Part shown: in pieces, positions 2,942 to 63,986 of the stretch
Layout of the letters: every line of letters starts with the position of its first letter
How positions within the stretch are numbered: position 1 is the first letter of the stretch
Sequence record: MT887289.1
Origin: Escherichia phage SME50
Direction: 5' to 3' (one strand)
DNA length: 64,000 nt
Position numbers and translations under genes: made by a program
The notes under the pieces: generated by a model
What the model saw: the letters and a program-made list of their open reading frames with translations, nothing else
Told to the model about the DNA's origin: nothing
Database searches by the model: none

Positions 2942-3840
2942 TATTTACCTACTGACAAAGGTGCTTCAATCTTTCCTGCATGTTGGTAGTTGTTAATACC
3001 ACCAATAAAGTCACTTGCAGTGAGATGTTTTAAGTCACTTAAAGTGTTAAGTGGGATACCAATTTCAAAAGTAGGTGCATGAAACTCTTCATTATTCATC
3101 AGTTCATAAACCTGCTTCATATGATTCTGATAAATCTGAGTATCTCCAAAGACACCTATCAAGTACCGTGGAGTGTATCCAGTCATCTTGCAAAGAACTT
3201 CCAGAATAAAACCATAAGACGCAATGTTAAAGGGAAGTCCTAAAAAGGTGTCTACAGAACGCTGATACCATTGTAAGTCAACTTCACCCTCGTTAGTGAT
3301 ATAAATCTGAAACAGAACATGACAAGGTGCTAAAGCCATTGAGTTTGCTGCAATATCTGCTGCATTCCAAGCATTAACAAGCATGTAACGGTCTGTGATA
3401 TCACCCTTCATCTTTGTTACTAAGGTCTCTAACTGGTCTACAACACAACCATTATGACCTTCAAAGTTTCTCCACTGAACCCCATAGATTCTTCCACCTG
3501 CATCTTCTAACCAATCTTGTTCAGAAGAATAATTAGAGCTTAACCAGCGTTTAAAATCATCTGACCAGATAGTCCAGCGTTCTCCGTCATTTTCACCCCA
3601 AGTGCGGTAACGGAGTTCACCAAGCTTATTCTCTCCATTCAGGAACCATAAAGCTTCCCCAATAACTTGCCGTGTAAACACCTGTTTAGATGTTAAGAGT
3701 GGGAAACCAGTTCGCATATCAAAACGAAACTGAGGTGGAGCAAATGCAGAGATAACATCTCCAGTTCGTGTAGTACGCAGTTCACCGACGGATAAAACAT
3801 GGTTCAGGATATTTTTGTAACTTGAATCTGCTTGTGACAT
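2941..3840 (-). CDS. thyA: thymidylate synthase
   Basis: 299 aa; active-site LAPCHVLFQ motif and overall ThyA-like sequence. Confidence 0.9.
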   Translation of the reverse strand: MSQADSSYKNILNHVLSVGELRTTRTGDVISAFAPPQFRFDMRTGFPLLTSKQVFTRQVIGEALWFLNGENKLGELRYRTWGENDGERWTIWSDDFKRWLSSNYSSEQDWLEDAGGRIYGVQWRNFEGHNGCVVDQLETLVTKMKGDITDRYMLVNAWNAADIAANSMALAPCHVLFQIYITNEGEVDLQWYQRSVDTFLGLPFNIASYGFILEVLCKMTGYTPRYLIGVFGDTQIYQNHMKQVYELMNNEEFHAPTFEIGIPLNTLSDLKHLTASDFIGGINNYQHAGKIEAPLSVGK

Positions 3841-3841
3841 A

Positions 3842-4387
3842 TCAAAAGTGTCCTTTTACTTGTGGAACATAAATTTCAAAAGTTGCTTTACCATCCTCTG
3901 ATGGTTTTGACTGTACCTTTGTAAATACACGACCATCATACAACTTCTCGAAGAAGTTTTCAAAAGGTAAATGCACAGTGACCTCTTCAGTAACTTTATG
4001 GAAAACTGTATGGAACACTACATCAGCATACGGTAAAGCATTGACAAGGACACCTGCACCACCAATTACAAAGACATCTTCATCAATAGAGCTATCAAGA
4101 TACTTCAAAAATGCTCCAAATGATTCTTTACTGGCTTTAGCATACATTACATCATCTTTTCCAAAGTCTATGCCTAAGTATGGTACAGAGTTTGTTAAGA
4201 TGAGGTTTGCACGTTCTGGTAAAGGTTTACTACCCAGAGTCTTAAAAGTCTCATTCCCCATTACTACTAAGTTGTTTTTAGTGAGTCTCTTAAACTCTTG
4301 CATGTCCTGTTTATGTCGAGGCCACGGCATACCAGTTGGAGTACCAAACTCACCATTTTCACCACTTGCAAAGATTAATTTAATCAT
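3842..4387 (-). CDS. folA: dihydrofolate reductase
   Basis: 181 aa; N-terminus MIKLIFA...GMPW and VMGNETF motif resemble DHFR; adjacent to thyA. Confidence 0.8.
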   Translation of the reverse strand: MIKLIFASGENGEFGTPTGMPWPRHKQDMQEFKRLTKNNLVVMGNETFKTLGSKPLPERANLILTNSVPYLGIDFGKDDVMYAKASKESFGAFLKYLDSSIDEDVFVIGGAGVLVNALPYADVVFHTVFHKVTEEVTVHLPFENFFEKLYDGRVFTKVQSKPSEDGKATFEIYVPQVKGHF

Positions 4388-4644
4388 TTTATAAATCCTT
4401 TCTTAATGAACCAGTTGATAACATTCTTCACAGCTTTATTGCTATGGTAGATTAAGTGTGGTGTAGGCTGGTATGAGCCATAGGCCCAGAATGATAGATG
4501 CTCACCACAACCAACACATGTAGTACTTTCTTCAGCTATATGACCATTAACAATCACATGAACTTCACCTTGCAAGTCTGTACACCCACAATGTGGACAA
4601 CGGATAGGTGTTCCATCAGACTCATAGCAGTGTTCAATTTTCAT
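4384..4644 (-). CDS. zinc-ribbon protein
   Basis: 86 aa; CPHCGC...CVGCGEH cysteine pairs. Confidence 0.4.
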   Translation of the reverse strand: MKIEHCYESDGTPIRCPHCGCTDLQGEVHVIVNGHIAEESTTCVGCGEHLSFWAYGSYQPTPHLIYHSNKAVKNVINWFIKKGFIK

Positions 4645-5160
4645 TTATTTAACCTCAAAAACTGGTTCAAGAACCAATATAAAGTCTACACAGTCATCTT
4701 CTTCATCCAGAATACCATCAAAGTTCTTAGGAACGAAGTCGAAGAGGCTCATAACAAAACAGTCAGAAGTAACCCTAATAGTGCCTCCCATATTCTCTAC
4801 AGTCAACACTGTACGACTTTCTTTTACCTCTCGCAGAAGATTGCTCACAAAGTCATCTAAGAAGTACTTCATCAGTGACTTAAAACCTTTAGGGTAATCT
4901 GTACCAGAGTATGTTTCAATCTGAGGTACAAGCTTAACATTTATGCTAGTCTTCGTTAAGAACGTGCTAGAAAACATACTATCAGGTAACTTACAAACAG
5001 TCTTTCCAGTACCCTCATGTTCAATCTCAACAAAACCAGCTTCATCACCACATGTAACTATTTTAAAAGATGCTTCATTCTCACACTGTGAAGCCATAAA
5101 CTTTTTAAGCATCACTTTAAGGAAATCTGCATGAGCATCTTGTAAGTAGATATCAATCAT
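4645..5160 (-). CDS. hypothetical protein
   Basis: 171 aa ORF in tightly packed minus-strand operon. Confidence 0.5.
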   Translation of the reverse strand: MIDIYLQDAHADFLKVMLKKFMASQCENEASFKIVTCGDEAGFVEIEHEGTGKTVCKLPDSMFSSTFLTKTSINVKLVPQIETYSGTDYPKGFKSLMKYFLDDFVSNLLREVKESRTVLTVENMGGTIRVTSDCFVMSLFDFVPKNFDGILDEEDDCVDFILVLEPVFEVK

Positions 5161-5173
5161 AGTTAATCACCTA

Positions 5174-5533
5174 TTATGGGAACAGACACTTGATGTCATC
5201 ATTTTTGAAAACGAAGCTTGTGTAGTTGTGACCGTCAACATCCAGCCAAACAGCCTGAACATCTACACCATCAAGATTGTGGTAAAGCTCTTTGATGAAG
5301 TGGTCTTTCACAATCTGACTGCTAGTTGTTTCCAGCTTAATGTTTGAGATTGCTGAACCTACAGCCATATAACCCATGACACGTTTCTTCTCAGTATGCT
5401 TAATCTTACCATCTTTGTAAGCCATAATGAGATTGGAAAGAATCTTTACACCATAATACTTTTCAAGGTGAGTCGGTACACCATAAAAACCTAATGCGAA
5501 GTTTTCAGAGTGGATAATGTTTTCACGTTTCAT
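5174..5533 (-). CDS. hypothetical protein
   Basis: 119 aa ORF. Confidence 0.45.
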   Translation of the reverse strand: MKRENIIHSENFALGFYGVPTHLEKYYGVKILSNLIMAYKDGKIKHTEKKRVMGYMAVGSAISNIKLETTSSQIVKDHFIKELYHNLDGVDVQAVWLDVDGHNYTSFVFKNDDIKCLFP

Positions 5534-56774: not shown

Positions 56775-57060
56775 CGTTAAACTCTCTGACGAAGAAATAG
56801 TTGACTTTGTTATTACCTACCATAAGGTCAAAGCAGGTGTTCTCAAAAGGTTTGTTGTAGGCATCATATGAAGTGTACGTATCAGCTACTTGTTTAGTGT
56901 TGAGCTTTTTACTTGATGGATTTAAGAGGCCACCATACAGTTTCTTGATAGCCTCTTCTACAACAGACCAGATGATTTCGTCAGTAATTTCTTCGTACAG
57001 GTCAAGTTCACGCTCTAGTGAGAAGTCACAAATAGGGAAAATAACCTGCACTTTACTCAT
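56767..57060 (-). CDS. hypothetical protein
   Basis: 97 aa. Confidence 0.45.
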   Translation of the reverse strand: MSKVQVIFPICDFSLERELDLYEEITDEIIWSVVEEAIKKLYGGLLNPSSKKLNTKQVADTYTSYDAYNKPFENTCFDLMVGNNKVNYFFVREFNDE

Positions 57061-57455
57061 TAACGGATAACCTGTGTGACTTGAATTGCTTCAGTTACGG
57101 ACAATTCACCTACTTTCTCTTCTTTGATAAAAGTGAAGGTGAGTTCAACAGGTTCTTCCTCTTCTTGCTCAACTGGAACACCATTAAGCTCATCAAAGAT
57201 TGATTGGGTTGTCCAGTCTTCACCACCATCTGGGTAGTGGACTGCGTAAAGAGGAAACTCTAAATTATACCAAGCAAAAACAGGGCAACCATCTGCATCA
57301 TCTCGGCATCTGTGGAGATATGTGTTTGTACCTTCAAAATGCAAATGGAGATTACCATTCTTCTCAAAGAGAAGAGCATCTCGCAGGTCTAGTTCCTCAT
57401 TTTCGCTGTAACGGCTGACATCAACTTTAACGTGGATATGACTGTTATTATTCAT
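57060..57455 (-). CDS. hypothetical protein
   Basis: 131 aa. Confidence 0.5.
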   Translation of the reverse strand: MNNNSHIHVKVDVSRYSENEELDLRDALLFEKNGNLHLHFEGTNTYLHRCRDDADGCPVFAWYNLEFPLYAVHYPDGGEDWTTQSIFDELNGVPVEQEEEEPVELTFTFIKEEKVGELSVTEAIQVTQVIR

Positions 57456-57846
57456 AAAAACCTCTCTCTGCTTGTTCGATTTTTTCTCTTAAAATTTCGC
57501 AATGTTGTAAATGGTAGTTAGCTTCTTGTTCATGTGTTGCTAACTGCCTTTCCAGAACAGTTTTATAGTAACCTGCAAGTTGCTCTTTTGTCAATGGGTG
57601 CTCTGAAATAATATCAAGCCCACTTTCACCAAGAGGGTTGAATTGTCCATGCTCATTGACATTGTAAGTCTCAAACTTGAACAGGCCATTGTTCACAGAT
57701 TCAATAGGTGACAATTCAACAAGCTCTACAGTAAATCGTGTATACACCTTGTCGCCTCTTGAAACCACATTGTTTCCGACAATGCGTACAAGCGAACCAT
57801 TACGTGTGTACTTAAAAGTTCCAAAGTCACTAGCCCAAAGCTTCAT
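57448..57846 (-). CDS. hypothetical protein
   Basis: 132 aa. Confidence 0.5.
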   Translation of the reverse strand: MKLWASDFGTFKYTRNGSLVRIVGNNVVSRGDKVYTRFTVELVELSPIESVNNGLFKFETYNVNEHGQFNPLGESGLDIISEHPLTKEQLAGYYKTVLERQLATHEQEANYHLQHCEILREKIEQAERGFYE

Positions 57847-57857
57847 AGTTTTCTCCT

Positions 57858-57888
57858 TAGAAAATAAAAAAGGCTCCCGAAGGAGCCT
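57858..57888 (-). terminator. intrinsic terminator (minus strand) after lysozyme gene
   Basis: aggctcccgaaggagcct with minus-strand T-run. Confidence 0.55.
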
Positions 57889-57897
57889 ATGAAGATA

Positions 57898-58362
57898 TTA
57901 CTTTGGGTATACACTGTCAAGATAAATGTCAGCTTCCATTCTACGTCTGTTTTTCAGACCATTTGAAGTGACCTTCTTACCTTTGACTGTAACCTTGTTC
58001 CACCACTGCATAGCTTCTGCACAACCTACCTTGTTACCAGCATTGTGGCGCTTGATAAATGTAGACTCCTGCATAGCTGTGATACCGATGTTGTATGTTT
58101 CACTTACAAGTGCATCGAACTCATTCTGAGAAGTTGGAGCCTTGATAGCTTTATTCACTGCTGCAACAAACTTCTCAACATCTGCGAGAAGATACTGTTC
58201 AGCTTGTTCAGCCGTGATTTTCATACCCATCTTAACAGGTTTTCCGTCAATACGGATTGTACCATACCCGATTGTTGGGATTCCGGCAGAGTCTTCGTAA
58301 GCCTCTAACTTCAGACCTTCAAAGAACTTAATAGCTTCTAAACCTTTTCTTGAGAGTTGCAT
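57898..58362 (-). CDS. T4-type lysozyme (GH24 endolysin)
   Basis: 154 aa; FEGLKLEAYEDSAGIPTIGYGT matches T4 lysozyme catalytic region (Glu/Asp/Thr). Confidence 0.85.
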   Translation of the reverse strand: MQLSRKGLEAIKFFEGLKLEAYEDSAGIPTIGYGTIRIDGKPVKMGMKITAEQAEQYLLADVEKFVAAVNKAIKAPTSQNEFDALVSETYNIGITAMQESTFIKRHNAGNKVGCAEAMQWWNKVTVKGKKVTSNGLKNRRRMEADIYLDSVYPK

Positions 58363-59747
58363 TATGCCTCCCCTGCTGGGTTAACTGTAACTGTTGCCGC
58401 ATTAGATGTTACAGAGCCACCTGCACCAGTCACTACACAAGTGTAGCTTCCTGCATCAGCAGCAGTTGCACCTTCTTTGGTGTAAGTTGCAGTCGTTGCG
58501 TCTGGGATGACTTCCTCACCTTTCTTCCACTGGTAACCTGTTGCACCAGTTGCCACAACATTCAGCGTTAAGGTCTCACCTTCAGTGATTTCTTGATTGG
58601 CTGGTTGTTGAGTGATGACTGGAAGAGCATTAACGGTAACAGTTGCAGCATTAGATGTTACTGTTGTACCACCTGCACCAGTAACTACACAGGTATATGA
58701 ACCAGCATCGGCAGGGTCTGCTTTAGCTTTCGTGTAAGTTGCACCAGTTGCACTAGGGATGTTCACATTATCTTTCTTCCATTGATAACCTGTTGCACCT
58801 GTGGCCTCAATACTCAGCGTCAAACTGCCACCTTCATTGACTACTTGGTTAGTTGGCTGCTTGGTAATAACTGGCAAAGCATTTACCGTGACAGTTGCAG
58901 GGTTAGAAGTAACAGAACCTCCAGCACCAGTTACAACGCAAGTGTAAGAACCTGCATCTGCTGGAAGCGCACCAGATTTGCTATAGTTAGCATTTGTAGC
59001 TGATGGGATGTCAGAGCCATCTTTCTTCCATTGGTAGCCTGTTGCACCTGTTGCAGTAACTGATAAGTCAATGTTTCCACCCTCATTAATGGTCTGGCTA
59101 GAAGGTTGCTGTGTAATCACAGGCAGTGCGTTCACAGTAACTGTTGCTGCATCTGAGGTGACACTTGTTCCACCATCTCCAGATACAGCACAAGTGTATG
59201 AACCAGCGTCAGAAGGTGCTACAGATTGTTTTGTATAGGTTGCAGATGTGGCACTGGAGATATTCTCACCATCCTTCTTCCATTGATACCCAGTGGCATT
59301 AGTTGCGAGAACACTTAGGGTAAGTGCTCCACCTTCATTGACTGTTTGGTTTGTCGGTTGCTGAGTAATTACTGGTGGCTTAATGGCATCCTTCAACTTA
59401 GCATTCAACATTGAGAACGGTTTAACTCTTGCCAACCATTCACAATACACTGTGTCAACGTCTTTACCATTGATAATTGCATATTGTAAATCCATGAAGA
59501 AGTCAGAAGTTCTCATTTGAGCACCGACGCTGTAAAGCAAATCATCACTAAAAGGAACTTTGTAGTCTGGTTTGTAGTCAAACTTCTTAACCTCTGCGAT
59601 ATCAGCTTCAGGCCAATATGAGCTATAGGTGAGTGGTAAAATAGCTTCTTGATATGTTCTAAAATCATATCTCTTACCAGCCTTTACATTTGCGATGAAG
59701 CCCTTCACAAATTCTTTGAAGTCTGGGTAAGTCTTTGCTTTAATCAT
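58362..59747 (-). CDS. Ig-like repeat protein (Hoc-like decoration/adhesin candidate)
   Basis: 461 aa; N-terminal domain paralogous to ORF 59744..60115; four tandem roughly 90-aa Ig-like repeats each with YQWKKDG...DAGSYTC...VTVNALPVITQQP. Confidence 0.65.
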   Translation of the reverse strand: MIKAKTYPDFKEFVKGFIANVKAGKRYDFRTYQEAILPLTYSSYWPEADIAEVKKFDYKPDYKVPFSDDLLYSVGAQMRTSDFFMDLQYAIINGKDVDTVYCEWLARVKPFSMLNAKLKDAIKPPVITQQPTNQTVNEGGALTLSVLATNATGYQWKKDGENISSATSATYTKQSVAPSDAGSYTCAVSGDGGTSVTSDAATVTVNALPVITQQPSSQTINEGGNIDLSVTATGATGYQWKKDGSDIPSATNANYSKSGALPADAGSYTCVVTGAGGSVTSNPATVTVNALPVITKQPTNQVVNEGGSLTLSIEATGATGYQWKKDNVNIPSATGATYTKAKADPADAGSYTCVVTGAGGTTVTSNAATVTVNALPVITQQPANQEITEGETLTLNVVATGATGYQWKKGEEVIPDATTATYTKEGATAADAGSYTCVVTGAGGSVTSNAATVTVNPAGEA

Positions 59748-60115
59748 TTCTTTTTAGCCTCTAAACGTGCGTTTAATCTAAAATAGCCTTTATGTTGTGG
59801 AGACACATCACCAACAACGATACCTTCAACTTTATAACCTTTACCGATTACATACTGGATATCCATAAGAAATGTACCAAGTCCTACAATGTGGAACATT
59901 GGATATAATAACTTATCTGAATCTGGGAGATTAATATCTGGGTTGTAGGTAGGTTGTTTACTAGTAGGTGTAATATCTTCTTCAGGCCATTTACTTAGTC
60001 TCCATGTCAAAGGTGTTGGGATAACATCATTAAGATTGTACCTCCCACCATTCTCCACGGAATGGATATAGGATTGTAGGAAGCAATAAAAGTCTTTTGC
60101 ACTCTTAGCTTTCAT
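59744..60115 (-). CDS. paralog of N-terminal domain of the Ig-like protein
   Basis: 123 aa; shared blocks KAK..DF, WPE.DI, SD.LLY, MD(I/L)QY.I..G. Confidence 0.55.
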   Translation of the reverse strand: MKAKSAKDFYCFLQSYIHSVENGGRYNLNDVIPTPLTWRLSKWPEEDITPTSKQPTYNPDINLPDSDKLLYPMFHIVGLGTFLMDIQYVIGKGYKVEGIVVGDVSPQHKGYFRLNARLEAKKK

Positions 60116-60162
60116 TAAATATCCTTATAAATAGATAAAGGGGCATTAGCCCCTGTTTATAC

Positions 60163-60753
60163 TTAAGCTTTGGTCTTAAGTAGGTTCTTAAGTTTTTTGA
60201 GATTCATGCTCTCGTCAAACTTAAAACCAAATCCATTGACATAATCAATGAACTCGGATTTCTTACTAAGTGATAGCGCGTAACTCATATCAAAGTTATT
60301 ACTTGTTTCTGCGTCTGGACTAGAGTTCACATCAAATGAAATTTCTGTAGGCTCTTGCTTGCTACTTCTCATATTATCAATTAATAGGCATGTATAGTTC
60401 GCTGGATAGAAGTTTGCACTGCCATCAACATACCCATACTTATTGTTGTGAATAAGGTTTGAAAATACCTTAAGAAATGTTTCTGAGTCGTGGCATACAA
60501 GTTTGAATTGGCTGCATTCTCCAAGAGCCACTAAAGAATAAGGGCTTTCACTATCAATGTCGTAGTTTGGATTTGATGTTGTAACCGTCACACGCATCAA
60601 GTTATTAGCAATAGTCTTCTGCTTGAAAGAATTTGGGACATAGTGAAGACCTCTATCACACTGATTAACTAACTCTTTAAGTAGGTCGTTTGCATATGGT
60701 GAATTAATTGATACAGAGCCATCACTATTATAGTTAAAACTTACTGTTAACAT
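60163..60753 (-). CDS. hypothetical protein
   Basis: 196 aa. Confidence 0.5.
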   Translation of the reverse strand: MLTVSFNYNSDGSVSINSPYANDLLKELVNQCDRGLHYVPNSFKQKTIANNLMRVTVTTSNPNYDIDSESPYSLVALGECSQFKLVCHDSETFLKVFSNLIHNNKYGYVDGSANFYPANYTCLLIDNMRSSKQEPTEISFDVNSSPDAETSNNFDMSYALSLSKKSEFIDYVNGFGFKFDESMNLKKLKNLLKTKA

Positions 60754-60980
60754 TTTTCAGTTCTCCTGCGATTTATGATTTTGCTGCAATAGAGAAACGA
60801 AGTAAACTCACTGGAAGAAACCATTAAGTGTTGTTCACTAGATTGAGCCATTGCCCTGAAATACATTCCAGTCAAAGCATCGTAGTGACTATTCTTTCCA
60901 ATTGAGGTTATATAGCTATGACTCTTTGCAGTTTTATATAAATCTATAATATCTGCGATTTCTAATTGGGAACTACACAT
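60747..60980 (-). CDS. hypothetical protein
   Basis: 77 aa. Confidence 0.35.
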   Translation of the reverse strand: MCSSQLEIADIIDLYKTAKSHSYITSIGKNSHYDALTGMYFRAMAQSSEQHLMVSSSEFTSFLYCSKIINRRRTEKC

Positions 60981-61221
60981 AGATAATCCTCTTGTCTTCT
61001 GTAATTTTGAAAGAACAGGTACAGACCAATTTCAGAGGATGAATAGTAGAGTAACTCTACCCTTTTTGATTCCTTACAGTGATTGGTATTTTTACCTTTC
61101 TTCGGGTTGTTTGATTTTCTCATTAAGTCTCCTTTGTAGAACAAGGCAGACCTACAGCTTTAAGTAAGATGGTACAGTAATCCATACAACAAGTCAAGAA
61201 CTATTGCAAGTTAAAAAAGTT

Positions 61222-61282
61222 GTTGACAAAGTACTTGACAAGGTGTAGGCTTATAAATACTTAGAAGATAACTTAAAAGGTT
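61222..61282 (+). promoter_or_regulatory. conserved early-promoter/regulatory motif (second copy)
   Basis: gttgacaaagtacttgacaaggtgt ... acttaaaaggtt; divergent intergenic region with probable minus-strand promoter ttgact-17-taccat about 61170..61200. Confidence 0.5.
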
Positions 61283-61372
61283 CCTCTAAAAAGGCTATTT
61301 AAACAGATATCTTTCTGGATATCTATCTTTTATCTTAAAAGCCTTTTAAGAGGTCTTATAAGAGGCATACCA

Positions 61373-61744
61373 ATGAAAAACAGAACAAACAAAGGCCAGT
61401 TTAAAAAAGGCCAGTCTGGTAACCCATCTGGAAGACCGAAAGGTTCTCGTAACAAAAGCTCACTTGTAAAAGCTCAACTGACCATTGATAATTCTGCTGA
61501 GTTTGCTGCAAAGTTGTTTGAAGCGATTGTTACAAGGGACGCTGCTAAGCTTGCAGAGTTCGGGTTAAACACAGATGACGTAACCATCAAGAGCATGATT
61601 GAGGTCGGTAAAACTATCTTTACTCACTCAGCAGGTGAGATGAAAGCACTTGCAGCAGACACTAAGAAGACTTCTGATAATGGTGGTCAGTCACAGACAG
61701 ATAACAAACCAACGTTCTCTGCTGTAGCGACTCTCAAAAAATAA
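61373..61744 (+). CDS. hypothetical protein with GNPSGRPKG motif
   Basis: 123 aa; basic N-terminus. Confidence 0.5.
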   Translation: MKNRTNKGQFKKGQSGNPSGRPKGSRNKSSLVKAQLTIDNSAEFAAKLFEAIVTRDAAKLAEFGLNTDDVTIKSMIEVGKTIFTHSAGEMKALAADTKKTSDNGGQSQTDNKPTFSAVATLKK

Positions 61745-61824: not shown

Positions 61825-63240
61825 ATGAGCGAATTATTTAAACATGCGCACCTTCATGCAGGTCGAACTGAAAATGGTGCTGTAAACCATACTTCATCAA
61901 TGTCTGCTCTGGTAGACTTCTACAAAGCCGCTGGCTCAAGCCGTAGCAATGTAGAAATCTTACCAGACCTGTTCTACAAAGCTTTGCGTGAGGATGTTGA
62001 TGTTGCAGTTCGTATTTTACTGCATATGCGAGATGTACGAGAAGGTATGGGTGAGCGTAAAGCTTTCCGAACTGTTTTACTTCAAGCGATTGAAGATAAG
62101 GTTTTAGAACCTACACAGGTTCTTCGCATTATGGATAAGATTGCAGAACTTGGTCGTTTTGATGACTTCAAAATCTTTGTAGGTACTCGTTTTGAGACAG
62201 ATGCCTTCAAACATTTAGAAGCAGCATTACTAGACCCTGCAACAGCAGGTTTAGCGGCTAAGTGGTTACCACGAGTAAAACCACGCCACAAACAGTTTGT
62301 AAAACGTTTCTGTAAGTTTGCAAACTTAAGTGAGAAGGAGTATCGCACACTGTTATCTGCACTGTCCGATACGGTTGAGCAAAAAATCTCTGCTAATGAG
62401 TTTGGTAAGATTGACTACAGCAAGATTCCTTCACTCGCTGCTGCACGTTACCAAAAGCTCTTTAACCGTAAAGATGGTGAACGTTACAAAGCTTATATCG
62501 AGTCACTCTCAAAGGGTGAGGCTAAGATTAACGCTGGTGCCGTTTACCCATACGATGTGATTAAATCTATCAAGTATGGTAATGCAGGTGTTGCTAATGA
62601 GCAGTGGAAAGCACTACCAAACTGGATGGCAGAGGGTGAAAACATCTTGTGTATGACTGATGTTTCAAGCTCAATGTCTTGGGTGAATCTTGGTTCAATC
62701 ACTGCCCTTGATATTGGCGTATCACTTGCCTTGTATGTAGCAGAACGCAATACAGGTTGCTTTAAGAATGAGTTAATGGTTTATTCAACAAACCCTCACT
62801 TCATCGAACTGAGTGGTGATTTGAGAAACCGTCACCGTCAGGTAATGCGTCATGTTGAATATGGTTCAACTAACTTACAAGCAGCTTTTGACCGCATTCT
62901 TGAAATAGGTAAGAGAAACAACTTGACTCAGAAAGATATGCCAAGTAAGCTTATTATCTTCTCTGATATGGAGTTTAATCAGGTTGATGGTGCAAATGGT
63001 CGTACAAACTTTGAAGCAATTCAGAGTAAGTACAAAAAAGCTGGATACGAAATGCCACAACTAGTATTCTGGTACTTAGCAAACCGTAATGGTACTTGCG
63101 AAGTATCTGTTAAAGATAATGGTGTAGCAATGGTATCAGGGTTCTCTCCAGCCACTTTAAAAGCTCTGCTTGGTGGTGAGAAGTTTGACCCAATCAGCGT
63201 AATGCTCAAAGCAGTAATGATTGACCGTTACATCTGGTAA
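61825..63240 (+). CDS. vWA-like domain protein (MIDAS motif)
   Basis: 471 aa; MIDAS-like DVSSSMS; conserved N-terminal TENGAV...LHMRDVREGMGERKAFR block. Confidence 0.5.
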   Translation: MSELFKHAHLHAGRTENGAVNHTSSMSALVDFYKAAGSSRSNVEILPDLFYKALREDVDVAVRILLHMRDVREGMGERKAFRTVLLQAIEDKVLEPTQVLRIMDKIAELGRFDDFKIFVGTRFETDAFKHLEAALLDPATAGLAAKWLPRVKPRHKQFVKRFCKFANLSEKEYRTLLSALSDTVEQKISANEFGKIDYSKIPSLAAARYQKLFNRKDGERYKAYIESLSKGEAKINAGAVYPYDVIKSIKYGNAGVANEQWKALPNWMAEGENILCMTDVSSSMSWVNLGSITALDIGVSLALYVAERNTGCFKNELMVYSTNPHFIELSGDLRNRHRQVMRHVEYGSTNLQAAFDRILEIGKRNNLTQKDMPSKLIIFSDMEFNQVDGANGRTNFEAIQSKYKKAGYEMPQLVFWYLANRNGTCEVSVKDNGVAMVSGFSPATLKALLGGEKFDPISVMLKAVMIDRYIW

Positions 63241-63405: not shown

Positions 63406-63482
63406 CTCTGTTTAGCTCAGCTTGGTAGAGCGTTCCGTTTGGGGCGGTAAGGCCGGAGGTTCAAGTCCTCCAACAGAGACCA
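63406..63482 (+). tRNA. tRNA-Pro (anticodon UGG), CCA encoded
   Basis: hand-folded cloverleaf: acceptor ctctgtt/aacagag, D-arm gctc...gagc, anticodon loop tttgggg, T-arm ggagg-ttcaagt-cctcc; one U-U mismatch in anticodon stem. Confidence 0.6.
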
Positions 63483-63489
63483 AATTAAT

Positions 63490-63567
63490 GTTCCAGTAGA
63501 CAAAACGGTAAAGTCACCACTCTTTCAAAGTGGATATTTGAGGGTTCAAATCCCTTCTGGAACGCCA
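63490..63567 (+). tRNA. tRNA-Glu (anticodon UUC), CCA encoded
   Basis: acceptor gttccag/ctggaac, anticodon stem ccact/agtgg with loop ctttcaa, T-loop ttcaaat. Confidence 0.65.
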
Positions 63568-63658
63568 GTTTTGACAGAAGACCAATTGCAGCAAACTTAA
63601 TCTTATTCATCTGACACGAAATCGGACAAAGAAGATATTTGGTCTGGTCATTAAGAAT

Positions 63659-63735
63659 TGCGGGTATAGAGAAAGGGCGTCTCACATGTCTCATTAGCAT
63701 GGTATCGGCAGGTTCGACTCCTGCACCCGCCTCCA
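63659..63735 (+). tRNA. tRNA-Met family (anticodon CAU), CCA encoded
   Basis: T-arm gcagg-ttcgact-cctgc, anticodon stem catgt/gcatg with loop ctcatta; position 1-72 appears mismatched, so could be initiator-like or Ile2-like. Confidence 0.55.
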
Positions 63736-63812
63736 ATTTTGCAGAAGACCGTATTCAGCAACAAAATACTTTTTGCGGATAAAAGAAAAAACACGGTCTG
63801 GCAATGTATTAA

Positions 63813-63886
63813 GGTTAGGAAGCACATAAGGTATGTGCGGTCGCCTGTTAAGCGAATGGCACAGGGTTCGAATCCCTGACTAACCG
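63813..63886 (+). tRNA. tRNA-Asn (anticodon GUU)
   Basis: acceptor ggttagg/actaacc, D-stem gcac/gtgc, anticodon loop ctgttaa, T-arm caggg-ttcgaat-ccctg; CCA not encoded. Confidence 0.6.
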
Positions 63887-63898
63887 CAAAATTTAAAT

Positions 63899-63986
63899 GT
63901 GTCGTTATCCCGTAGATGGTAGCGGTGGGGACTGTAAATCCCTTGTCATTGAGACTCGGTAGGTTCGACTCCTACACGGCACACCA
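63899..63986 (+). tRNA. tRNA-Tyr (anticodon GUA), long variable arm, CCA encoded
   Basis: acceptor gtgtcgt/acggcac, anticodon loop ctgtaaa, long variable arm ttgtcattgagactcgg, T-arm gtagg-ttcgact-cctac; resembles bacterial tRNA-Tyr. Confidence 0.7.

What the first reader, a model, noticed from the sequence alone, without database searches (positions are those of the whole stretch)
58362..60115. Ig-repeat protein created by domain duplication plus acquisition of four tandem Ig-like domains
ORF 59744..60115 (123 aa) and the first roughly 120 aa of ORF 58362..59747 are clear paralogs (shared blocks WPE.DI, SD.LLY, MD(I/L)QY.I..G). The longer copy adds four nearly identical roughly 90-aa Ig-like repeats (YQWKKDG...DAGSYTC...VTVNALPVITQQP). 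The nucleotide-level similarity between repeats suggests recent expansion. Such Ig arrays on phage virions (Hoc-like) mediate weak adhesion to mucus or cell surfaces.
Basis: seen in the sequence. Interest (0 to 1): 0.4.

Follow-up and report, generated by a model that had tools for sequence, protein, structure and literature searches.

The report
Felix O1-type Hoc-like capsid decoration gene
The long gene is the already-described capsid decoration protein of Felix O1-like phages (a capsid anchor carrying four Ig-like domains), so it is ordinary; the small gene upstream is an old, conserved, anchor-only copy of unknown role that I did not find discussed in the papers I read.

Summary
The window comes from a Felixounavirus (99% identical to phages ZX4221 and vB_EcoM_Shy). 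ORF 58362..59747(-) is the ortholog of Bas63 Hex-Dec (PDB 9NCF chain S, E 3e-269, about 90% identity) and Sf14 gp20 (PDB 9C2D). Both have been placed by cryo-EM as monomers at the centres of the 60 pentamer-proximal hexamers of a T=9 capsid.

[quoted passage not shown] The 123-aa upstream ORF is a true paralog of the CapBD (36% identity, E 1e-16).

- **Repeat similarity.** The repeats are 67-76% identical in protein and 64-71% in DNA, not nearly identical. Synonymous sites are saturated in five of six pairs. Each repeat has a 88-98% identical counterpart at the same position in other phages. They are old cassettes, not a recent expansion.
- **Polarity.** Outgroup Ounavirinae (phiEa21-4, a Hafnia phage) have one CapBD+Ig gene and no short copy. 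The Ig-bearing gene is probably ancestral and the short gene derived.

Copy number ranges from 1 to 4 in relatives, and reaches 7 in one metagenomic contig, through in-register recombination.

The paralog is under purifying selection (dN/dS about 0.1). It has lost both capsid-anchoring arginines and is deleted or fused in some isolates. Its function is unknown.

The parts
59744..60115 (-). Stand-alone paralog of the capsid-binding domain (123 aa; phrog_4463; = Felix O1 ORF37, bas63_0125, CHB7_gp94). AAGGA ribosome-binding site upstream. Its TGA stop overlaps the Hex-Dec ATG (ATGA).
   Evidence: 36% identity and E 1e-16 to Hex-Dec aa 2-119. AF2 model (pLDDT 66) matches only 9ncf_S (TM 0.64) and 9c2d_S (TM 0.59) in the PDB. 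dN/dS is 0.07-0.16 against relatives. Hex-Dec R79 and R107 are replaced by G and Q/H. Junction sequences.
59376..59747 (-). [quoted passage not shown]
   Evidence: Aligns end to end with the modelled CapBD of 9NCF chain S and 9C2D chain S. Sf14 gp20 R79 and R107 salt-bridge to capsid protein D221 (PMC11821841). Both arginines are present in the window protein.
59124..59375 (-). Ig-like domain 1 (aa 125-208, cassette type A)
   Evidence: Pfam Ig_3/I-set. Type A is shared at about 92% identity with 23 repeats in other phages.
58875..59123 (-). Ig-like domain 2 (aa 209-291, cassette type B)
58623..58874 (-). Ig-like domain 3 (aa 292-375, cassette type C). This is the variable slot: absent from the common 377-aa form and replaced by a different cassette in Bas63.
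   Evidence: The 377-aa relatives have architecture ABD. Bas63 is ABED, with its third repeat only 71% identical to the window's.
58374..58622 (-). Ig-like domain 4 (aa 376-458, cassette type D, the usual terminal cassette)
   Evidence: 93-98% identical to the last repeat of the 3- and 4-repeat relatives compared. Type D is the terminal cassette in most Felixounavirus architectures.
58362..59747 (-). Whole Hex-Dec gene (461 aa), annotated 'tail protein' or 'immunoglobulin-like domain protein' in relatives.
57898..58362 (-). Endolysin (Phage_lysozyme). Its ATG overlaps the Hex-Dec TAA stop (TAATG). It is the last gene of the three-gene unit.
   Evidence: Pfam PF00959 E 2e-40. Junction sequence. 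The same order is found in all Ounavirinae loci examined.
60139..60154 (-). GC-rich hairpin between the upstream 196-aa ORF and the paralog. It may bound the transcription unit.
   Evidence: Consensus scan only; sequence.
57871..57888 (-). Terminator-like hairpin plus T-run just after the endolysin stop.
   Evidence: Consensus scan only.
60163..60753 (-). Conserved 196-aa ORF (phrog_4034, unknown function). It is the syntenic left neighbour of the locus across Ounavirinae.
   Evidence: It is 29% identical, E 1e-22, to phiEa21-4 gene 39, which sits directly upstream of the single CapBD+Big_2 gene there.

Best explanation
**Identity of the long ORF.** ORF 58362..59747(-) is the Felixounavirus hexamer-centre decoration protein (Hex-Dec of Bas63, gp20 of Sf14, gp36 'tail protein' of Felix O1).

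**How it works, as shown for orthologs.** The basic N-terminal domain of about 120 aa docks as a monomer into the centre of each of the 60 pentamer-proximal hexamers of the T=9 capsid. Arg79 and Arg107 bind capsid-protein Asp221.

**How it works, as inferred.** The four acidic Ig-like domains project outward as a flexible fibre. By analogy with T4 Hoc, they would give weak, non-essential adhesion to surfaces or glycans, or modulate aggregation.

**History of the repeats.** The four Ig domains are distinct, old cassettes (A-B-C-D), not fresh copies. Copy number in the family changes through in-register homologous recombination between cassettes.

**The short ORF.** The 123-aa upstream ORF is an ancient tandem paralog of the capsid-binding domain alone.
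- It most likely arose in the common ancestor of Felixounavirus and Mooglevirus from an already Ig-bearing gene.
- It is kept by purifying selection and is probably translationally coupled to Hex-Dec.
- It is dispensable in some natural isolates.
- It has lost both anchoring arginines.

My best guess for the paralog, at low confidence, is an accessory that modulates Hex-Dec loading or occupies capsid sites differently.
For: **Orthology**
- 9NCF_S at E 3e-269 and 9C2D_S at E 1.6e-165.
- 99% DNA identity to Felixounavirus genomes.
- Same gene order as Bas63, Shy and Felix O1.

**Published placement**
- PMC12609058 and PMC11821841 report cryo-EM placement, virion mass spectrometry for Sf14 gp20, and the R79/R107-D221 contacts.
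- Felix O1 gp36 was found in virions with 14 peptides and 44% coverage (PMC3185647).

**Ig fold**
-.
- The Ig part has pI 4.4 and the CapBD pI 8.5.

**Old cassettes**
-.

**Recombination**
- The second Ig domain of SP3_SHan-2021 is a B/C/D mosaic. The first Ig domain of REP5 is an A/B chimera.
- Architectures seen include A, D, AD, ABD, ABC, ABCD, ABED and ABDD.
- Copy numbers 1-4 occur in 28 IMG/VR loci, and 7 in one ENA contig.

**Paralog**
- Homology and fold.
- dN/dS is 0.07-0.16.
- It is present in 27 of 28 IMG/VR loci, with the 4-nt overlap in the Felixounavirus-type loci.
- It is present in about 233 of 252 phage records.

**Polarity**
- phiEa21-4 gp38 is CapBD plus one Big_2 domain. 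The Hafnia phage gp85 is CapBD plus other beta domains.
- Both are single genes in the same synteny.
- The outgroup CapBD matches Hex-Dec at E 7e-13 and the paralog at E 4e-7.
Against: - Nothing was measured for this particular phage. Capsid location rests on orthologs about 90% (Bas63) and about 85% (Sf14, CapBD) identical.
- The adhesive role of the Ig array is untested in any Ounavirinae. The only functional datum is that Bas63 gp124 is more needed on host S17-1 (bioRxiv 10.1101/2024.10.10.617714).
- AF2 models the CapBD poorly (pLDDT 30-60).
- The polarity argument is by parsimony. The paralog is demonstrably lost often (REP5-type deletion, SP3 fusion, the 7-Ig contig), so repeated loss in the outgroups cannot be excluded.
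- There is no evidence at all on where the paralog protein goes. It is not among the 17 Felix O1 virion proteins listed. Neither cryo-EM study reports extra density on the other hexamers.
Confidence: 0.85

Rival explanations
1. One reading: a short ancestral gene was duplicated, and one copy recently acquired and expanded four nearly identical Ig-like repeats.
For: The two genes are adjacent paralogs. At a deeper level, different Ounavirinae genera carry different Ig-like families on homologous anchors: Big_2 in phiEa21-4 and I-set/Ig_3 here. Display domains have therefore been exchanged at some time. Repeats 3 and 4 share more codons than chance predicts, 0.58 against 0.42.
Against: Repeats are 64-71% identical in DNA, and synonymous sites are saturated in 5 of 6 pairs. 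Each repeat has a 88-98% identical ortholog at the same position in other phages. Outgroups have one Ig-bearing gene and no short gene. The paralog is the more divergent copy relative to outgroups.
Confidence: 0.08
2. The protein is a tail protein, as most GenBank records annotate it.
For: Best PHROG is phrog_3995 'tail protein'. Many records say 'tail protein'. Felix O1 gp36 was called 'major tail protein' after it was detected in virions (PMC3185647).
Against: Cryo-EM maps of two relatives place the N-terminal domain in capsid hexamer centres (9NCF, 9C2D; PMC12609058, PMC11821841). The Felix O1 label rested only on presence in the virion proteome. The Ig domains also match Hoc-like and T5 pb10 head-decoration families: phrog_2973 at 4e-56, 5lxk at 4e-12.
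Confidence: 0.03
3. The 123-aa paralog is itself a minor capsid protein. It would be an Ig-less cap for hexamers that Hex-Dec does not occupy (the 20 true three-fold hexamers), or a competitor that sets Hex-Dec occupancy.
For: It keeps the full CapBD fold and length and stays basic, pI 8.9. It is probably co-translated with Hex-Dec, given the ATGA overlap. It is under purifying selection. Hex-Dec leaves the three-fold hexamers empty because their Asp221 geometry differs (PMC11821841), so a copy with altered contact residues could in principle fit there. The natural SP3 chimera shows that paralog residues 1-48 can replace the Hex-Dec N-terminus in a viable isolate.
Against: Both anchoring arginines are replaced, R79 by G and R107 by Q/H. 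Both cryo-EM papers report no density on the other hexamers, although Bas63 and Sf14 each encode the paralog. It is not among the 17 listed Felix O1 virion proteins, while smaller proteins of 9.7-13 kDa were detected. REP5-type phages delete it and are still isolated as plaque formers.
Confidence: 0.15
4. The paralog is a non-virion helper, a chaperone or loading regulator of Hex-Dec, or has taken on an unrelated intracellular role.
For: It is conserved and probably translationally coupled to Hex-Dec. It has lost the capsid-contact arginines. It is absent from the published virion protein lists and maps (PMC12609058; PMC11821841). It is non-essential in nature.
Against: There is no direct evidence and no family annotation: Pfam gives nothing and phrog_4463 has unknown function. 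Single-gene outgroups and the 7-Ig contig load or encode Hex-Dec without it.
Confidence: 0.4

Closest known systems
Bas63 (Escherichia phage JohannRWettstein) Hex-Dec, PDB 9NCF chain S; Sf14 gp20, PDB 9C2D/9C3A chain S; Felix O1 gp36
   Same: Orthologs. They share the N-terminal capsid-binding domain (E 3e-269 and 1.6e-165), the Arg79 and Arg107 anchors, the I-set/Ig_3-type repeats, the position between a 123-aa ORF and the endolysin, and a location far from the structural module. Bas63 also has four Ig domains.
   Different: The window protein has cassette order ABCD. Bas63 has a different third cassette (ABED, 71% identity at that slot). Sf14 has three Ig domains and Felix O1 two.
[quoted passage not shown]
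   Same: It works alike: a monomer at hexamer centres, dispensable, with a string of acidic Ig-like domains projecting from the head. The Ig domains hit 'Hoc-like head decoration' PHROGs (E 4e-56 and 2e-50).
   Different: Domain order is reversed, since Hoc binds the capsid through its C-terminal domain. The Bas63 capsid-binding domain is larger, topologically distinct and pseudo-two-fold (PMC12609058). A CapBD profile search of the PDB finds only 9C2D and 9NCF. Hex-Dec occupies only 60 of 80 hexamers.
T5 pb10 decoration protein (PDB 5LXK, 8ZVI)
   Same: [quoted passage not shown] The Ig domain is detectably homologous (E 4e-12 and 8e-12).
   Different: It has one Ig domain only. Its capsid-binding domain is not detectably related.
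phiEa21-4 gp38 'conserved structural protein' (Kolesnikvirus) and Hafnia phage SarahDanielle gp85
   Same: Homologous CapBD (36% and 29% identity, E 7e-13 and 4e-12). Same synteny: conserved upstream ORF, decoration gene, endolysin.
   Different: The display domain is a different Ig-like family (one Big_2 domain, PF02368, E 2e-21) or other beta domains. Neither has a short paralog.

Membership tests
Ounavirinae Hex-Dec / Sf14 gp20 hexamer-centre decoration proteins | N-terminal capsid-binding domain of about 120 aa, homologous to the modelled part of 9NCF_S and 9C2D_S | tested here: met
   phmmer E 3e-269 and 1.6e-165, aligned from residue 1. The CapBD profile hits only these two PDB sequences, at E about 1e-53.
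Ounavirinae Hex-Dec / Sf14 gp20 hexamer-centre decoration proteins | Arg79 and Arg107, which salt-bridge to capsid protein Asp221 in Sf14 | tested here: met
   Both arginines are present in the window protein. The capsid protein itself lies outside the window, so the partner residue could not be checked.
Ounavirinae Hex-Dec / Sf14 gp20 hexamer-centre decoration proteins | C-terminal string of Ig-like domains | tested here: met
   Four Ig_3/I-set stretches. AF2 pLDDT is 93-97. Foldseek matches multi-Ig proteins at E down to 9e-28.
Ounavirinae Hex-Dec / Sf14 gp20 hexamer-centre decoration proteins | Physical location at the centres of pentamer-proximal hexamers of the T=9 capsid | not testable with these tools
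   Shown only for Bas63 and Sf14 (PMC12609058, PMC11821841).
T4 Hoc family | N-terminal Ig-like domains followed by a C-terminal capsid-binding domain homologous to that of Hoc | tested here: not met
   The order is reversed: CapBD at aa 1-124 and Ig domains at aa 125-458. The CapBD profile finds no Hoc chain in the PDB. The Bas63 paper reports a distinct topology. Only the Ig domains are related.
Hex-Dec capsid-binding-domain family (tested for the 123-aa paralog) | Full-length homology and fold of the CapBD | tested here: met
   BLASTP E 1e-16 over 121 aa. phmmer to 9ncf_S gives 3e-12. The AF2 model has moderate confidence (pLDDT 66) and matches only 9ncf_S (TM 0.64) and 9c2d_S (TM 0.59).
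Hex-Dec capsid-binding-domain family (tested for the 123-aa paralog) | Capsid-anchoring Arg79 and Arg107 | tested here: not met
   Replaced by Gly and by Gln/His (Arg in one variant) across the paralog family. phiEa21-4 gp38 keeps Arg and Lys at these positions.
Hex-Dec capsid-binding-domain family (tested for the 123-aa paralog) | Presence in the virion | not testable with these tools
   Not among the 17 Felix O1 virion proteins listed. Not mentioned in the Bas63 or Sf14 papers.

The most novel reading that the evidence does not exclude
The conserved 123-aa anchor-only paralog is a functional partner of Hex-Dec that the structural papers I read do not mention. It could be a second, Ig-less capsid ligand for the 20 three-fold hexamers that Hex-Dec cannot bind. 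It could instead be a competitor or loader that sets how many Ig fibres a head carries. Either way, Felix O1-like phages would have a two-component system for tuning head decoration.
Probability: 0.2. Interest if true: 0.45.

Novelty: already known. Interest (0 to 1): 0.22.

Why it matters
The main feature adds nothing new. The protein, its capsid position, its Ig array and its variable copy number were published in 2025 for phages about 85-90% identical.

Three things go slightly beyond those papers:
- There is a conserved anchor-only paralog next to the gene. It is under purifying selection and has altered contact residues.
- The Ig domains are old, exchangeable cassettes. They are shuffled by in-register recombination, and I found up to seven in one relative.
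- Natural deletion and fusion variants (REP5-type, SP3_SHan-2021) are ready-made material for testing what the paralog and the anchor lobes do.

This matters mainly for annotation, because 'tail protein' is wrong. It also matters for anyone engineering Felix O1-type phage heads for display.

Tried and rejected
- **Tandem Repeats Finder** on 57000-61500 found nothing, because the repeats are too diverged.
Alignment A1 produced a 461-position profile that included the Ig columns. It returned only giant bacterial Ig-repeat proteins: 95,958 hits, none informative about the capsid-binding domain.
- **The third homolog search**, with a CapBD-only profile (A5), found only 96 proteins. All were 1-Ig Hex-Decs, fragments or paralogs. 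It gave no new architectures and did not even list the Erwinia phage homologs.
- **Published evidence on the paralog.** I searched the Bas63, Sf14, PhageMaP, VpaE1, wV8 and Felix O1 papers and the supplements held here. I found no mention of the paralog. The VpaE1 proteomics table is not held as text.
- **Capsid protein Asp221.** I looked for the major capsid protein in the window to check this residue, but it is not in the window.
- **'Tail protein' reading.** Rejected; see the rival explanations.
- **Decaying pseudogene reading of the paralog.** Rejected, given dN/dS of 0.07-0.16 and conserved length across two genera.
- **Extra copies.** There is no further CapBD or Ig copy elsewhere in the window.
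Full report
**1. What is there**

The region carries a tight three-gene unit on the minus strand:
- a 123-aa ORF at 60115..59744;
- a 461-aa ORF at 59747..58362;
- a 154-aa phage lysozyme at 58362..57898.

The first stop overlaps the second start (ATGA). The second stop overlaps the third start (TAATG). A GC hairpin lies upstream at 60154-60139, and a terminator-like hairpin lies just downstream at 57888-57871. Both come from a consensus scan only.

The window is a Felixounavirus. The 3-kb region is 99.0% identical to Escherichia phage ZX4221 and 98.7% to vB_EcoM_Shy. It matches 239 phage records, nearly all Escherichia, Salmonella, Shigella or Citrobacter Ounavirinae.

**2. Checking the observation**

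The paralogy is real:
- The short protein aligns over its whole length with residues 2-119 of the long one, at 36% identity and E 1e-16.
- The two PHROG families cross-hit each other.

The four Ig-like units are also real:
- Pfam Ig_3 gives E 4e-43 and I-set 2.7e-31, each in four stretches.
- The boundaries are aa 125-208, 209-291, 292-375 and 376-458.
- An AF2 model gives pLDDT 93-97 across the repeats, with all-beta secondary structure.
- Foldseek matches it to Robo1/2 Ig1-4, titin I65-I70 and Aureispira GhpA at E down to 9e-28.

The description 'nearly identical, nucleotide-level similarity, recent expansion' does not hold:
- Units are 83-84 aa. They are 67-76% identical in protein and 64-71% in DNA.
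- Tandem Repeats Finder finds nothing.
- Among residues conserved between two repeats, the same codon is used in 0.34-0.41 of cases for five of six pairs. The gene's codon usage alone predicts 0.42. Synonymous sites are saturated.
- Only repeats 3 and 4 show an excess, at 0.58.

**3. What it is**

The long protein matches two chains of solved phage capsids:
- 9NCF chain S, 'Immunoglobulin-like domain protein', E 3e-269;
- 9C2D/9C3A chain S, 'tail protein', E 1.6e-165.

These are Hex-Dec of phage Bas63 and gp20 of Shigella phage Sf14. The two papers (PMC12609058, PMC11821841) show the following:
- The N-terminal ~118-122 residues form a capsid-binding domain (CapBD).
- The CapBD sits as a monomer in the centre of the pentamer-proximal hexamers of a T=9 head.
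- The true three-fold hexamers stay empty.
- Sf14 gp20 Arg79 and Arg107 salt-bridge to capsid-protein Asp221.
- The Ig domains are flexible and unresolved.
- The number of Ig domains varies from one to four in the genus.

Other published data fit this picture:
- Sf14 gp20 was detected in virions by mass spectrometry.
- Felix O1 gp36 is the same gene (ORF36). It was found in virions with 44% coverage and was then called 'major tail protein' (PMC3185647). That is evidently where the widespread 'tail protein' label comes from.
- In a knockout screen, Bas63 gp124 was dispensable on most hosts but more needed on E. coli S17-1 (bioRxiv 10.1101/2024.10.10.617714).

The window protein keeps Arg79 and Arg107. 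Its CapBD is basic (pI 8.5) and its Ig part acidic (pI 4.4).

Three levels of support should be kept apart:
- Identity and capsid placement are shown for close orthologs.
- They are inferred for this phage.
- Adhesion to mucus or cells is an inference from T4 Hoc and has not been tested in any Ounavirinae.

**4. History of the Ig array**

I cut the repeats out of 35 Hex-Dec proteins: the window, Bas63, two GenBank variants, 27 IMG/VR loci and four database proteins. I then clustered them.

They fall into cassette types:
- The window is A-B-C-D.
- The commonest form (377 aa) is A-B-D.
- Others are A, D, A-D, A-B-C, A-B-D-D, and A-B-E-D (Bas63, whose third cassette is only 71% identical to the window's).
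- Mooglevirus and divergent contigs have different sets.

Same-position cassettes are 88-98% identical between phages. Different cassettes within one protein are about 70% identical. The cassettes therefore diverged long before these phages did.

Copy-number change happens by in-register recombination, and some junctions can be seen directly:
- The second Ig domain of SP3_SHan-2021 is a B/C/D mosaic.
- The first Ig domain of REP5 is an A/B chimera.

Among the 28 IMG/VR loci, 27 were scored because one gene is cut by a contig end. Counting repeats by the split used, 6 carry 1 Ig domain, 11 carry 2, 8 carry 3 and 2 carry 4.

One ENA contig carries a 725-aa version with seven Ig domains in the same synteny. 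That is beyond the published range of one to four.

**5. The short paralog**

Distribution and conservation:
- It is conserved at 67-95% identity and about 123 aa across Felixounavirus and Mooglevirus.
- It is present in 27 of 28 IMG/VR loci, with the 4-nt overlap in the Felixounavirus-type loci.
- It is present in about 233 of 252 GenBank records. These include Bas63 (bas63_0125), Sf14 and Felix O1 (ORF37).

Selection and age:
- dN/dS against relatives is 0.07-0.16, similar to the CapBD (0.02-0.08) and to Ig domain 1 (0.05-0.21).
- Synonymous differences between the paralog and the CapBD are saturated, pS 0.72. The duplication is old.

Structure and contact residues:
- An AF2 model of moderate confidence (pLDDT 66, pTM 0.67) matches only 9ncf_S (TM 0.64) and 9c2d_S (TM 0.59) in the PDB.
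- The two capsid-anchoring arginines are replaced throughout the paralog family, R79 by G and R107 by Q or H.

Natural variants show it is dispensable:
- REP5 and one IMG/VR phage share a deletion of about 235 bp inside it.
- The 7-Ig contig has none.
- In SP3_SHan-2021, which is 99.9% identical to the window over the DNA upstream of the junction, the paralog and Hex-Dec have recombined. The crossover lies in the roughly 17-nt stretch encoding the shared WPE(E/A)DI block.
- The result is one gene whose first 48 residues are paralog and whose remainder is Hex-Dec.

I found no mention of the paralog in the Bas63, Sf14 or PhageMaP papers. It is not among the 17 Felix O1 virion proteins listed, although smaller proteins were detected.

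**6. Polarity of the duplication**

Other Ounavirinae have a single CapBD gene in the same slot, between the homolog of the 196-aa ORF and the endolysin:
- Erwinia phage phiEa21-4 gp38 is 204 aa, annotated 'conserved structural protein', with a CapBD plus one Big_2 domain (PF02368, E 2e-21).
- Hafnia phage SarahDanielle gp85 is 321 aa, with a CapBD plus other beta domains.

Neither has a short copy. Their CapBD is closer to Hex-Dec (E 7e-13 and 4e-12) than to the paralog (4e-7 and 9e-7). phiEa21-4 keeps Arg and Lys at positions 79 and 107.

The parsimonious reading is that an Ig-bearing gene is ancestral and that the short gene arose later, in the Felixounavirus/Mooglevirus ancestor. I put this at about 0.65, because loss of the paralog is demonstrably easy.

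Homologous anchors carry different Ig-like families in different genera.

**7. Comparison with known systems, and verdict**

The protein is a member of the Hex-Dec/gp20 family. It works like T4 Hoc but is not a Hoc-family member:
- The domain order is reversed.
- The anchor is unrelated. A CapBD profile finds only 9C2D and 9NCF in the PDB.

It shares domain order and a homologous Ig domain with T5 pb10 (E 4e-12), but not the anchor.

The finding is real but already explained by published structures.

The modestly new elements are the conserved anchor-only paralog, the cassette view of the Ig array, and the natural fusion and deletion variants. The function of the paralog is open. I favour a non-virion helper or regulator of Hex-Dec loading (about 0.4) over a second capsid ligand (about 0.15).

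Noticed in passing
window 61825..63240 (+) and 63406..63986: A 471-aa protein with DUF2828 + DUF7788 and a weak VWA_2 hit (annotated 'RNA-binding protein' in Felix O1 ORF42 and REP5) sits directly upstream of a tRNA array (Pro, Glu, Met, Asn, Tyr). The pairing is conserved in Felix O1, Bas63 and Shy. The divergent 7-Ig contig also keeps the DUF2828/DUF7788 gene in this position.
   Followed up: partly
window 61373..61744 (+): A 123-aa DUF5681 protein (E 2e-14), divergently transcribed from the decoration/lysis unit. Function unknown.
   Followed up: no
L003 (MW296865.1 Salmonella phage SP3_SHan-2021) 2501-3379; window 59973/59615 junction: A natural in-frame fusion of the paralog (aa 1-48, 100% identical to the window's) with Hex-Dec. 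The crossover lies in about 17 nt of microhomology encoding WPE(E/A)DI. The upstream DNA is 99.9% identical to the window.
   Followed up: yes
L004 (OQ174504.1 Escherichia phage REP5) 2305-2498; IMG/VR locus L025: Both carry the same internal deletion of about 235 bp in the paralog (window 60056 to 59820), leaving only its two ends. Viable phages therefore exist without an intact paralog.
   Followed up: yes
L035 (ENA ERZ28583233 scaffold_161) 3001-5178: A 725-aa Hex-Dec with seven Ig-like domains, above the published range of 1-4. It has the same synteny (201-aa ORF, Hex-Dec, lysozyme) and no paralog.
   Followed up: partly
GU169904.1 'Staphylococcus phage SA1' 142819-143190: A 147-kb record labelled as a Staphylococcus phage contains Felix O1-type Hex-Dec and paralog genes at about 97% identity. 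It is most likely a chimeric or contaminated record.
   Followed up: no
window 58362..59747 (each Ig repeat): Each Ig-like repeat has a single cysteine, in the DAGSYTC motif. I saw no second cysteine in any repeat, so the classical intradomain disulfide of Ig domains cannot form.
   Followed up: no
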